From a virus (Duplodnaviria; Heunggongvirae; Uroviricota; Caudoviricetes): DNA of 37,235 nt. Made by a program: the position numbers. Location of the stretch: IMG/VR virus record IMGVR_UViG_2563366903_000020. One strand, given 5' to 3'. Positions 31,201-34,200 of the stretch are shown here, one piece after another. The stretch's first letter is position 1. Each line of letters opens with the position of its first letter.

Positions 31201-34200
31201 GCTATGGAGCAAGCAGACAAGAAGATTTTTTTTCATCTGTGGTACAGCTATTGGCTGGAAGAGATGGTTTTCATACTCAGCAATAAAGCCGCTGCCATGT
31301 TGCGCGCCGGGGCGCTGATTGCTGCGGTATTGTCCTTTCTTCTGGTTGGTTTTCCCGTCCTGATGAGCCTTTGGGGGCTGGCGTTTTTTGTTTTTTCCTG
31401 GTTTTGCAGCAAGTGTGAATTCGTCGCCGAACTGGCGTGCTGGCAGAAACAGAGCTACCTTCGTCTGATTACGCAAAGGGATTTCATGAGCACTGAACGC
31501 CTGATTGAGCGCATTCTGTATCTGGAAGAAACGAACAGCGCATCCATGAAGGCGTTTGTCAGGCCCGCAAAAAACAAAGCGAGCGCATCTGTTGGTCTGT
31601 CTGCCAGCGAGCATTTGCGTTACTCCGAAAGGTTAATCTGCTGGTTGTGCGGCGTCTGATCGACTCCCGGCTGCGTGATGCTTTTACCGTCTTCCCTGAC
31701 AGGCGGTAATGACACGTCTATGTTCAGCTTGAGTGCCATTGCGTACTCCGCCCGCGCGCCAGCTGAATCCTCCCAGCCTTCCAGCAAGTAAATGACATCG
31801 GCACACATGAGCATCGGAATACAAATACTCATGTACTGCTGCTGGCTTAATCCGTCAGGCAGTACGGCAGGATTAAGAACGATGTTTCCGGCGCACCGAA
31901 GTTTCAGGTCCTCCACGCAAAATGCCGTCCTGTTGTGTCTTTGCATCCGGTCATGGGACCGGCGATATAAATCACTGCCATGCTTTACCTCCCGTATTGC
32001 GTGTTGCTGTCAGCACGCGTACTTCTTCCATGTTCGTGGCGCAGAAGTGCGAACCGTTGATAAGGCGGATGTGATGCATCTCAGGGTGGCGATAACCTCC
32101 GGTGCTGATTCCCGGGTTCTTGCGCCAACGCTTCGTGGTGCCTGGATGGCGTTCATCCGGTAACCCTGATAAATGCGTCTGGTTTCCGGTGTGTCGGAAT
32201 TGGATATGGTGATGCTGGTCATGCCGCCCGTTTCCTGTGAAAGGCGGTCAAGCGCTGCCCTCAGACGAACGTGCTCGTCTTCATCGAATGGTTTTCCGTA
32301 GGCGGTGAAATTGTCCCGGCCACTGAATCGCAGGTAAGGGGGATCGCAGTACACGCAAAGCGTGTTGCCCATGCCGAACAGGTGACTGGCAGAGTTCAGC
32401 GTATCCTTAAAATCTGCGTGGATAAGCAGCGTTCGGGTGCTGTTTGCCTTGTCTGCAAATGCGCGGATTTCACGCTCAGGGAAGTAGGGCTTGCGGTAGC
32501 AGCCGAAAGGCACGTTAAAATCGCCTTTTCCGTTCACGCGGAACAAACCGTTAAAGCTGTGTCGGTTCAGGTACAAAAACATGGCGGCCAGTCGCAGTTC
32601 ACGGCGGTCGCTTATTCCCGTTCTGCTGTTCAGGAAGGCATGATTCTCTGCGTTAAAGGTTTCGCGAATGATGAGATAGTCACCCCTGTTGTTGTGGTTC
32701 AGGAACAGGGTTTTCGCCTCGTCGATCAGGCTGTCGGTGTTGTCCCTGGCTTGCCGGTAGAAATTAATCAGCGCACCATTGGAATCACCCAGGATGTAAC
32801 GCTTGTAACTGGTGTTCATGAATACCGATGCGCCACCCACAAACGGCTCAACCAGGCAGTCTGCTTCTGGCAGATGCGCCTTCAGTGTGTTCATGATGCG
32901 ACTTTTTCCGCCCACCCATTTAAGCGGCGTGCCGGATAACAGTTCTTTGCTCATAACGCGGCCTCTTTGTTATAGGTTTCGTGCGTTAATAAATCCCATG
33001 ACGCCCCGTTGTTTTTGCTCAGCAATCGCCAGCGAAAACCGATTCTTATTACCAGGTAGTCGTGGGGTTTTATGCGTGAAAAATTCCGCACGCCGTCGCG
33101 GAATAAACGCAGCGATGCGCGGGCTTTTCTTTCCACGTTCAGGGGGGGGCAGCAACACACATTCAGGATGGCGACCATGGCTTCACCTCATATGTTCAGG
33201 AATGGTGTTGTGAAGCGCTGCCAGATTTCTGACACGACCTTTGCCTGGTAAACGGCGTCGCCCAGCGCGGTGTGAGCAATGGTCTCTTTGCCTGATCTGC
33301 CTGGCATTTTCCATCCAGTTGATTCAGCCATGGCGATAAGCGGGCGCATACAGCGCTCGTTCCAGTAGCACCAGGGGATGCTTTTTTCTCCGGCTGTGCG
33401 TGTTATGGCGGATTTCAGGATCGGGAAATCGAAGGATGCGCCCTTACACCATATGTTCAGTGAATTGCCCGGGCTTTCGTCATGCATATTGCGTGAAATG
33501 AACGCCAGAAATTCGGTCACTGCTGCCAGCTCTGTTCCATCTGCGTTGCGCAGGCAGGCTCTGGCTTCCACGGATTGTCCGGCCCACCATACAGCGGTGG
33601 CTGCATTGACGGTTCCGCCGTTGCGTTCTGAATCCACCGGGTCGATGAATTTCTCAAACTGCTTGCCCAGCTTTCCGGTGAACGGGTCGAAAAACACCGC
33701 CCCAATCGCGAATATGGCTGCGTCCGGTCCGTTACCCAGTGTTTCGGTGTCAATCATGAGATGGTTCATTATGCGCACCCCTTCAGTTCGTCTGGGTTGG
33801 CGAGTATTGCAATCAGTCGTTCAATGGATGAACAGGTTTCCTCCGGGGAGGTGTGCTTCTCTCTCGCTGTGTTAACCAGGTCATGCAGCAATTCGCAGAT
33901 ATGCGCACGCTCGGCTTTTCTTGCGGCAATGCTGATATGTGCATGATGGTTAGCTGGTCTGGCGGTTATTTTTCTGCCTGGTGATTCGGCTGTTCTCATT
34001 TGTTGACTCCTGAAAAAAGACAAAGGGAACCCGAAGGCATGAATGCCTTAATTAATTGCTCGTGTGTTTTCTGGTGTTATTCCGCGCCTGCTTTCGGCTT
34101 CAGGTTATTCCCAGATCTTCAGGGCTAACCAGATAAGCGCACTCACCTGAAATATCACCCATACAGTGGCGATGGTGAGTATTGCTTTTACATTCTTCAT

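What the first reader, a model, noticed from the sequence alone, without database searches (positions are those of the whole stretch)
31620..31981. DUF4406-like gene is split by an apparent 1-nt frameshift
The conserved N-terminal segment MAVIYIAGPMTG is read from ATG 31981 in one frame and stops after 25 codons, while the rest of the DUF4406-like protein (NRTAFCVEDLKLRCAGNIVLNPA…CADVIYLLEGWEDSAGARAEYAMA…) is in a neighbouring frame starting around 31946. This is either an inactivating mutation, a sequencing error, or production of a protein lacking the GPMTG motif from the internal ATG.
Basis: seen in the sequence. Interest (0 to 1): 0.45.

Follow-up and report, generated by a model that had tools for sequence, protein, structure and literature searches.

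The report
Frameshifted DUF4406 pseudogene in P2-like prophage
A small accessory gene of a P2-like prophage in E. coli KTE186 has lost one C, which splits it into a 25-codon stub and a 108-codon remnant; the same deletion occurs in hundreds of independent assemblies, so it is a real, inherited, most likely inactivating mutation and otherwise ordinary.

Summary
On the minus strand, ATG 31981 opens a 25-codon ORF (MAVIYIAGPMTGCKDTTGRHFAWRT*). The rest of the DUF4406 protein runs in the -1 frame (31946..31620, 108 aa). Intact E. coli prophage homologues read GAC-CAC (Asp15-His16); the window reads GACAC, so one C is missing at window 31937.

It is not a sequencing error. The window is E. coli KTE186 (GCA_000408105.1). 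The identical deletion is in the complete genome DETEC-S792, in an IMG/VR contig and in five independent metagenome contigs with the window's own allele. The truncated product that only the deletion can create is on record for 399 contigs. One derived allele (15 contigs) has a second frameshift, as expected for a decaying gene.

The lost N-terminus holds six of the 23 invariant family residues (Y5-I6-A7-G8-P9-M10). It forms strand beta1 of a predicted nucleoside 2-deoxyribosyltransferase/DNPH1-like fold. There is no slippery heptamer, and the internal ATG has no Shine-Dalgarno sequence. KTE186 keeps an intact 120-aa paralogue in a second P2-like prophage. A ~1.2-kb tract from that prophage has replaced the 3' half of the broken gene, stopping 110-142 nt short of the deletion.

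Verdict: a real pseudogene, ordinary, of low interest.

The parts
31620..31981 (-). Whole DUF4406 pseudogene, from native start to native stop; it would encode 120 aa if one C were restored
   Evidence: The restored sequence hits PF14359 on positions 2-89 of 91 with 109 bits.
31904..31981 (-). 5' fragment: 25 codons plus TGA. Codons 1-15 are native (MAVIYIAGPMTGCKD) and codons 16-25 are out of frame (TTGRHFAWRT).
   Evidence: Pfam matches profile positions 2-21.
31937..31937 (-). Deletion site. This is the single C left from the CC of GAC-CAC (Asp15/His16 codons); the missing base is adjacent.
   Evidence: DNA alignments A1 and A3. Intact alleles read AAAGACCACAAC or AAAGATCACAAC; the window reads AAAGACACAAC.
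31620..31946 (-). 3' fragment: a 108-aa ORF in the -1 frame. It is annotated in RefSeq as WP_432704347.1 'DUF4406 domain-containing protein'. It retains N17, R18, F21 and the S-x-G-x-x-x-E motif but lacks Y5-M10.
31987..31993 (-). Shine-Dalgarno sequence GGGAGGT of the native start. It directs ribosomes into the 25-codon stub.
   Evidence: The duplex with the 16S 3' end is -11.6 kcal/mol, in the top ~1% of 20-mers in the window.
31914..31916 (-). Internal GTG with a modest AGGA Shine-Dalgarno sequence, 10 nt upstream of the stub's stop codon. It is the start of GenBank's 98-aa call EOX25145.1 and the only plausible re-initiation point.
   Evidence: -6.5 kcal/mol, top ~11%.
30600..31827 (.). 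A ~1.2-kb recombination tract of 'A-type' sequence inside a 'B-type' prophage. It covers the 3' half of the pseudogene, the convergent 155/157-aa ORF (31186..31659 +) and the IsrK and C4 RNAs. The upstream crossover lies between 31827 and 31795, 110-142 nt 3' of the deletion.
   Evidence: There are 0 mismatches to KTE186's own prophage A (L016) over 31799-31100 and 30999-30600. There are 0 mismatches to the B-type prophage L004 over 32799-31800 and 30599-29000.
32010..32954 (-). Upstream gene of the same early operon: an intact DNA adenine methylase (314 aa)
   Evidence: PF02086.

Best explanation
The window holds a P2-like prophage integrated between serS and dmsA of E. coli KTE186. Its early operon reads exonuclease, ParE-like protein, Dam methylase, DUF4406, and further on gpA.

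The DUF4406 gene has suffered a genuine, heritable deletion of one C in the Asp15-His16 codons (GAC-CAC to GACAC, window 31937). Ribosomes load on the strong native Shine-Dalgarno sequence, read 15 native and 10 out-of-frame codons, and stop at TGA 31906-31904. The remaining 105 codons are left in the -1 frame without an efficient start. The gene is therefore a pseudogene.

What is lost is a small enzyme of about 120 aa with a predicted nucleoside 2-deoxyribosyltransferase/DNPH1-like N-glycosidase fold. Any product started internally would lack strand beta1 and the invariant Y-I-A-G-P-M block.

The allele arose recently and probably once. Downstream of the deletion its commonest form is identical to an intact allele. 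It then spread widely in E. coli and was shuffled by recombination among P2-like prophages. In KTE186 a ~1.2-kb tract copied from the co-resident second prophage, which carries an intact 120-aa copy, replaced the 3' half of the gene but ended 110-142 nt short of repairing the deletion.

Shown: the deletion, its heritability, the mosaic structure, the loss of conserved residues and the second-site decay. Inferred: the absence of functional protein and the enzymatic nature of the intact family.
For: Anatomy: searches show the two ORFs.

Site of the deletion.

Intact state is the norm:
- Every listed E. coli record except DETEC-S792 spans one base more than the query (26 genomes, 31 places; one best place listed per record).
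- 8 of 9 IMG/VR loci are intact.
- All 34 aligned homologues are in a single frame.
- In the 25 phage rows shown, out of 429 matching records, the match starts at query residue 1-5.

Heritable, not an error:
- The window is 100% identical to the KTE186 scaffold.
- The same deletion is in DETEC-S792 prophage B, in L006, in ten separate NCBI assemblies and in five metagenome contigs with the window's exact allele.
- The 104-aa product beginning MQRH, which only the deletion can create, is seen on 399 contigs.

Decay: P0007 (15 contigs) carries the deletion plus a second 1-nt deletion that destroys the SAGARAEY motif.

Loss of essential parts:
- Y5, I6, A7, G8, P9 and M10 are invariant.
- They form beta1 (residues 3-7) and the loop after it in the model, whose core pLDDT is above 90.
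- The fold matches NDT, DNPH1 and MilB/BcmB.

No rescue signals: there is no X-XXY-YYZ heptamer, and the internal ATG has no Shine-Dalgarno sequence.

Redundancy and mosaic: an intact paralogue lies on the same scaffold (L016), and the conversion tract is mapped.

Other genes of the prophage are intact.
Against: - No expression or protein data exist.
- RefSeq annotates the 108-aa and 104-aa ORFs as ordinary proteins, not pseudogenes.
- The 3' ORF is still open and, in the commonest allele, unchanged relative to intact relatives. The mutation is too young for decay to prove loss of function.
- The allele is surprisingly common, at 399 contigs or more. This could reflect clonal oversampling, but it could also reflect selection.
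- GTG 31916 has a modest Shine-Dalgarno sequence and lies 10 nt before the stub's stop codon. Some 98-aa product may therefore be made by termination-reinitiation.
- The function of DUF4406 is untested, so 'inactive' rests on conservation and on a predicted fold.
Confidence: 0.85

Rival explanations
1. Sequencing or assembly error: the genome really has GACCAC and an intact 120-aa gene.
For: Only the general fact that single-base indels are a common assembly artefact. No result obtained here supports it.
Against: The identical deletion is present in independent assemblies made from different samples and pipelines. The product that only the deletion can create is on 399 contigs. The site is a CC dinucleotide, not a homopolymer run. 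All other genes of the window have the same lengths as in related prophages.
Confidence: 0.01
2. An N-terminally truncated but functional protein is made from an internal start. This would be ATG 31946 (108 aa) or GTG 31916 (98 aa), the latter by termination-reinitiation after the 25-codon stub. Such a fragment might act on its own or as a modulating or dominant-negative subunit alongside the intact paralogue of the co-resident prophage.
For: The 3' ORF is open and keeps N17, R18, F21 and the S73-x-G75-x-x-x-E79 motif. GTG 31916 has an AGGA Shine-Dalgarno sequence (-6.5 kcal/mol, top ~11%) and sits 10 nt upstream of the stub's stop codon. Both well-resolved carrier genomes, KTE186 and DETEC-S792, also hold an intact paralogue. 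The allele is common.
Against: ATG 31946 has no Shine-Dalgarno sequence (-2.4 kcal/mol, no better than ~60% of random sites) and lies inside the translated stub. The fragment lacks six invariant residues and strand beta1 of the sheet. From general knowledge of alpha/beta folds, that loss should prevent folding. The GTG product would also lack N17, R18 and F21. No natural homologue among the 34 aligned sequences or the 25 phage rows shown starts after the YIAGP block. A second frameshift has accumulated in the 3' ORF in 15 contigs.
Confidence: 0.07
3. Recoding: a -1 ribosomal frameshift or transcriptional slippage within codons 13-21 restores a full-length 120-aa protein at low level, so the allele is an attenuated gene rather than a dead one.
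For: A -1 slip of tRNA-Lys on C-AAA-G (window 31942-31940) would give MAVIYIAGPMTGCKRHNRTAF..., which is native except for D15R. A slip on the T4 run at 31922 would also give 120 aa. A hairpin of -14.8 kcal/mol is predicted in the 60 nt that begin 7 nt after the AAA codon.
Against: There is no canonical X-XXY-YYZ heptamer in the overlap. The AAA to CAA re-pairing has a first-position mismatch. The T4 slip would lose the invariant N17 and R18. The two-frame arrangement is not conserved, because relatives are single-frame and differ only by this base. Any downstream structure therefore pre-dates the deletion and did not evolve for it. The runs are too short for efficient transcriptional slippage.
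Confidence: 0.04

Closest known systems
Pfam PF14359 (DUF4406), annotated in phage genomes as 'nucleoside 2-deoxyribosyltransferase', 'hydrolase' or hypothetical protein
   Same: The sequence family is the same. The restored protein scores 109 bits against a cut-off of 22 and covers profile positions 2-89 of 91. It is 86-98% identical to intact E. coli prophage proteins. Homologues are found in 429 phage records.
   Different: Here the gene is interrupted by a 1-nt deletion after codon 15. No single ORF contains both the YIAGPM block and the S-x-G-x-x-x-E block.
Nucleoside 2-deoxyribosyltransferases, human DNPH1 (Rcl) and the CMP N-glycosidases MilB/BcmB (solved structures 2a0k, 6evs, 8qhr, 4p5e, 4jen, 4ohr)
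   Same: The predicted fold of the intact homologue matches them (Foldseek E 2e-4 to 1e-2, probability 1.0, query TM-score 0.54-0.63). It has an N-terminal strand carrying an invariant Tyr and a C-terminal invariant Glu. These are placed like the active-site Tyr and the nucleophilic Glu of those enzymes, which is an inference from motif position and from my own knowledge of the family.
   Different: There is no detectable sequence similarity. The protein is much smaller, 95-120 aa against 120-160. Activity and substrate are untested. Residue-level equivalence was not verified here.
Ordinary frameshift pseudogenes in resident prophages
   Same: A single-base indel in an accessory gene that is otherwise identical to intact alleles. 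It is inherited, it has accumulated a further disruptive mutation in some lineages, and an intact paralogue is present in the same genome.
   Different: It is unusually widespread for a broken allele (399 contigs or more). It has been carried into at least four mosaic backgrounds by recombination.
Programmed -1 frameshifting of the P2 tail-chaperone genes E/E+E', which this phage family has at about window 5654-6200
   Same: Two overlapping reading frames related by a -1 shift in a P2-like genome.
   Different: E/E' has a conserved slippery site, and its two-frame arrangement is conserved across relatives (my own knowledge of the P2 family). The DUF4406 split has neither.

Membership tests
Pfam PF14359 DUF4406 | Profile match above the curated gathering score | tested here: met
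   the 108-aa ORF scores 83 bits and the restored 120-aa sequence 109 bits, against a cut-off of 22. One search gives a precomputed PF14359 hit.
Pfam PF14359 DUF4406 | N-terminal invariant block Y-I-A-G-P-M(-x-G) in the same polypeptide as the rest of the domain | tested here: not met
   the block is encoded only in the 25-codon stub, and the 108-aa ORF starts at profile position 13.
Pfam PF14359 DUF4406 | Downstream invariant residues (N17, R18, F21, N37, P42, G44, Y50, W70, S73, A76, E79) retained | tested here: met
   all are present in the 108-aa ORF.
Nucleoside 2-deoxyribosyltransferase / DNPH1 superfamily | Alpha/beta fold with a parallel sheet, matching solved members | tested here: met
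   for the intact homologue P0020 (88% identical to the restored window protein). This was not tested for the truncated product.
Nucleoside 2-deoxyribosyltransferase / DNPH1 superfamily | Catalytic Glu nucleophile and active-site Tyr at equivalent positions, and N-glycosidase or transferase activity | not testable with these tools
   Invariant Y5 and E79 are candidates. No residue-level structural alignment or assay was available, and sequence searches of the PDB found nothing.
Programmed -1 ribosomal frameshift site | Slippery heptamer X-XXY-YYZ in the overlap of the two frames | tested here: not met
   none found between offsets 0 and 90. The only runs are AAA (31942) and TTTT (31922).
Programmed -1 ribosomal frameshift site | Two-frame arrangement conserved among homologues | tested here: not met
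   homologues are single-frame, and the split is confined to one very recent allele.
Programmed -1 ribosomal frameshift site | Downstream stimulatory RNA structure | tested here: inconclusive
   a hairpin of -14.8 kcal/mol is predicted in the 60 nt that begin 7 nt after the AAA codon. The same sequence is present in intact alleles, and no shuffle control was run.
Sequencing or assembly artefact | Indel absent from independent assemblies of related sequence | tested here: not met
   the identical deletion is present in many independent assemblies.
Phase-variable (slipped-strand) contingency locus | Indel within a long homopolymer or short tandem repeat | tested here: not met
   the deletion is in a CC dinucleotide.

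The most novel reading that the evidence does not exclude
The frameshift allele may be maintained by selection rather than being mere decay. One version is that loss or attenuation of the DUF4406 N-glycosidase-like enzyme benefits the lysogen or the prophage. Another is that a low-level -1 slip at C-AAA-G yields a trickle of near-native (D15R) enzyme. A third is that a re-initiated 98-aa fragment poisons the oligomeric enzyme made by the intact paralogue of a co-resident P2-like prophage, as a form of inter-prophage interference.

The points not excluded are these. The allele is on 399 contigs or more. It has survived transfer into at least four recombinant backgrounds. Both fully resolved carrier genomes also hold an intact paralogue.
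Probability: 0.06. Interest if true: 0.45.

Novelty: already known. Interest (0 to 1): 0.12.

Why it matters
There are three modest points.

1. Annotation hygiene. RefSeq proteins WP_432704347.1 (108 aa) and WP_225394294.1 (104 aa) are remnants of a frameshifted gene and should be flagged as pseudogene products. They should not be used as family members with a 'short N-terminus'.

2. A small worked example of prophage micro-evolution. A single broken allele has spread through E. coli, has been shuffled by recombination between co-resident P2-like prophages, and is starting to accumulate second hits.

3. An uncharacterised family. Intact DUF4406 is a widespread phage protein with a predicted DNPH1/NDT-like fold, sitting next to Dam methylase in the early operon. 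The natural null allele alongside an intact paralogue in one strain offers ready-made material for testing its function.

None of this would surprise a specialist.

Tried and rejected
- Megablast of the gene region against sequenced phages found no match. Only tblastn finds distant phage homologues.
- The pattern scan of GTDB species-representative genomes gave 0 matches, so there is no information from other species.
- PDB searches by sequence, with a single protein and with a profile, gave only chance-level hits. The link to NDT and DNPH1 rests on predicted fold alone.
- A literature search for 'DUF4406' returned 3 papers. Judged from their titles and abstract openings, none looks functional; I did not open them.
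- Programmed frameshifting was considered and rejected. There is no heptamer and the arrangement is not conserved.
- Phase variation was rejected because the site is only a CC dinucleotide.
- I first suspected an inversion or misassembly, because the tail sheath, tube and tape-measure genes are on the + strand while the other late genes are on the - strand. This was rejected because the first 25 kb aligns in one piece at 99.5% with a complete genome.
- dN/dS on the remnant was not attempted. The commonest deletion allele is identical to an intact allele downstream of the deletion, so the test would have no power.
- The metagenome-contig scan was not used, since the other collections had already settled the question.
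Full report
**1. The observation**

On the minus strand, ATG 31981 is preceded by a strong Shine-Dalgarno sequence (GGGAGGT, 31993-31987). It opens a 25-codon ORF, MAVIYIAGPMTGCKDTTGRHFAWRT, which ends at TGA 31906-31904. A 108-aa ORF, MQRHNRTAFCVEDLKLRCAGNIVLNPA…, runs from ATG 31946 to 31620. ATG 31946 lies 35 nt after ATG 31981, so it is in the -1 frame, as expected if one base has been lost.

Pfam PF14359 (DUF4406) matches the stub on profile positions 2-21 and the 108-aa ORF on positions 13-89. A sequence with the base restored matches positions 2-89 of 91 at 109 bits, against a cut-off of 22.

**2. Where the base is missing**

Megablast against complete E. coli genomes found the gene in 27 genomes. 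In the matches that span the junction, the record covers one base more than the query. Three of these loci were fetched. In each the gene is a single annotated CDS of 116-120 aa, 'DUF4406 domain-containing protein', lying immediately after a DNA adenine methylase in the early operon of a P2-like prophage.

The DNA alignment shows a single gap. Intact alleles read GGA TGC AAA GAC CAC AAC AGG ACG GCA TTT (G C K D H N R T A F), with GAT CAC in a second allele type. The window reads AAAGA-CACAAC. The remaining C is window 31937.

**3. Origin of the window and state of the rest of it**

An exact look-up of the 108-aa product places it on scaffold KE136876.1 of E. coli KTE186 (GCA_000408105.1). That locus is 100% identical to the window over 4 kb.

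The window consists of serS (1-1293) followed by a complete P2-like prophage, and it ends at the integrase stop codon. In the closest complete genome the integrase is followed by dmsA. The first 25 kb aligns in one piece at 99.5% with E. coli DETEC-S792. All early-region gene lengths equal those of relatives, except for DUF4406 and the mosaic segment described in section 5. There is no sign of a generally indel-ridden assembly.

**4. It is not a sequencing error**

- **Complete genome.** The closest relative of the early region is DETEC-S792 'prophage B' (98.1% identical). It has the identical deletion, and PGAP there calls a 104-aa protein from the same internal ATG.
- **Complete E. coli genomes overall.** This is the only gap-free match. 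Every other listed record spans one extra base (26 genomes, 31 places, one best place listed per record).
- **IMG/VR.** One of nine loci carries the deletion.
- **Protein collection.** The exact 104-aa product begins MQRH, a start that exists only in the deleted allele. It is on record for 399 contigs and is indexed in 448 blocks of the collection. Ten separate NCBI assemblies were retrieved and all read GACAC.
- **The window's own allele.** Its 98-aa product, as GenBank originally called it (EOX25145.1), is encoded on five independent metagenome contigs. All five have the same deletion.

**5. History of the allele**

Downstream of the deletion, the common 104-aa product is identical to the intact protein of strain G1/2. 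Over about 1.16 kb spanning the site (1 kb upstream to 160 nt downstream), most deletion carriers differ from the window by 0-3 mismatches. The nearest intact alleles differ by 4-5. The mutation is therefore recent and probably arose once.

It has since been moved by recombination. L004 groups with intact alleles over that mostly upstream stretch. Carriers have at least two different downstream gene sets. Contigs L039 and L040 have the A-type upstream architecture.

The window itself is a mosaic. It has no mismatch to B-type L004 over 32799-31800 and 30599-29000. Between about 30600 and 31800 it is A-type.

KTE186 carries a second P2-like prophage on the same scaffold, about 1.13 Mb away, with an intact 120-aa DUF4406 (L016). 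The window's A-type tract is identical to that prophage over 31799-31100 and 30999-30600, with 7 clustered mismatches in between. The simplest reading is recombination or gene conversion between co-resident prophages. The upstream crossover lies between window 31827 and 31795 (alignment A3), which is 110-142 nt short of the deletion, so the frameshift was not repaired. An intact protein with the same mosaic architecture also exists elsewhere (P0003).

**6. What was lost, and whether anything functional remains**

In an alignment of 34 homologues from Enterobacterales and Shewanella, 23 positions are invariant. Six of them (Y5, I6, A7, G8, P9, M10) lie in the part that the 108-aa ORF lacks. In the 25 phage rows shown, out of 429 matching records, the match begins at query residue 1-5.

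An AlphaFold model of an intact homologue has mean pLDDT 80, and most of the core is above 90. Its elements are β1 3-7, α1 18-30, β2 34-36, α2 47-59, β3 63-66, α3 74-85 and β4 89-91. The best PDB matches are nucleoside 2-deoxyribosyltransferases, human DNPH1 and the CMP N-glycosidases MilB and BcmB. Sequence-only PDB searches find nothing.

By inference from what is known of that superfamily, Y5 on β1 and E79 in the S-x-G-x-x-x-E motif are the likely active-site Tyr and nucleophilic Glu. β1 would be an inner strand of the sheet. A protein that lacks residues 1-12 (or 1-22) should then neither fold nor catalyse.

Translation signals point the same way.

| Start | anti-SD duplex (kcal/mol) | Rank among window 20-mers |
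|---|---|---|
| Native ATG 31981 | -11.6 | about top 1% |
| Internal ATG 31946 | -2.4 | no better than about 60% of sites |
| Internal GTG 31916 | -6.5 | about top 11% |

GTG 31916 lies 10 nt before the stub's stop codon, so a little 98-aa product by re-initiation cannot be excluded.

There is no X-XXY-YYZ heptamer in the overlap. A hypothetical -1 slip at C-AAA-G would give a near-native protein (D15R). A slip at the T4 run would lose the invariant N17 and R18. Neither site resembles a known efficient shift site. The arrangement is also not conserved, since relatives simply have the extra base.

Finally, one derived allele (P0007, 15 contigs) carries a second 1-nt deletion in the remnant that destroys the SAGARAEY motif. 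That is the expected signature of a gene no longer under selection.

**7. Comparison with known things, and verdict**

The gene belongs by sequence to DUF4406. No functional study surfaced in the literature search: 3 papers mention the name, and their titles do not suggest one. Phage annotators variously label the family nucleoside 2-deoxyribosyltransferase, hydrolase or hypothetical.

The feature flagged is an ordinary frameshift pseudogene of that family in a resident prophage. It is real and inherited, it is buffered in this strain by an intact paralogue, and it is mis-annotated in RefSeq as a normal short protein. It is not programmed frameshifting, phase variation or an artefact.

Its only unusual aspects are its abundance and its persistence across recombinant backgrounds. 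Clonal oversampling of surveillance isolates can explain both, but I could not test that here.

Interest is low (0.12). The residual novel reading, a selected attenuation or an interfering fragment, gets about 6%.

Noticed in passing
window 30862-30949 (-) and 30985-31059 (-); ORF 30584-30805 (-): Rfam finds a C4 antisense RNA (82 bits) and an IsrK Hfq-binding sRNA (67 bits) in the apparently ORF-free stretch downstream of DUF4406. They are followed by a 73-aa ORF with a weak Pfam 'Derepression' hit. Together they look like a P1/P4-type c4-antirepressor/derepression module in a P2-like prophage. The RNAs lie inside the ~1.2-kb tract copied from the co-resident prophage, and the ORF straddles its approximate downstream end, so most of the module was exchanged between the two prophages of KTE186.
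   Followed up: partly
window ~30600-31827; locus L016 (KTE186 scaffold KE136876.1 2536248-2544610): KTE186 carries two related P2-like prophages on one scaffold. The window's prophage contains a ~1.2-kb patch that is near-identical to the other one (0 mismatches over most of it, with 7 clustered in 31000-31099). This is evidence of recombination or gene conversion between co-resident prophages.
   Followed up: yes
L016 5881-8363 (KTE186 prophage A, outside the window): In the second prophage, the gpA replication endonuclease is called as 55 aa plus 813 aa instead of a single 837-aa protein. That prophage keeps the intact DUF4406 but may itself have a disrupted replication gene.
   Followed up: no
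window 15305-17371 (-): A 688-aa ORF lies between the lysis genes and the tail genes. Its counterpart in the relative is annotated as DUF6645. It has 74.5% nucleotide identity to orf3 of Stx2-converting phage 86, which is annotated 'SASA family carbohydrate esterase'. It looks like a NanS-p-like sialate O-acetylesterase cargo gene in a P2-like prophage.
   Followed up: no
window ~1537-1677 and ~2009-2149 (-): By homology to the DETEC-S792 annotation, two Hok/Gef-family toxin genes lie between serS and the ogr-like gene, at the prophage's right end. This segment also matches 'MokW-like host killing' regions of Stx phages at about 85% identity.
   Followed up: no
window 10095-11435 (-): The tail-fibre gene is one continuous 446-aa ORF in the window. 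In the 99.5%-identical DETEC-S792 prophage, PGAP flags the equivalent region as two incomplete pseudogene pieces. The fibre may be a shortened or mosaic form, or the flags may be an annotation artefact.
   Followed up: no
window 31186-31659 (+): A convergent 155/157-aa ORF of unknown function, with no Pfam hit on record, overlaps the last 40 nt of the DUF4406 gene. It is one of at least three alternative cassettes found at this position in related prophages (155 aa, 215 aa, or 154 + 62 aa).
   Followed up: partly
RefSeq WP_432704347.1 (108 aa), WP_225394294.1 (104 aa); GenBank EOX25145.1 (98 aa): Public annotation treats the remnant ORF as a normal 'DUF4406 domain-containing protein', with three different start choices, instead of flagging a frameshifted pseudogene.
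   Followed up: yes
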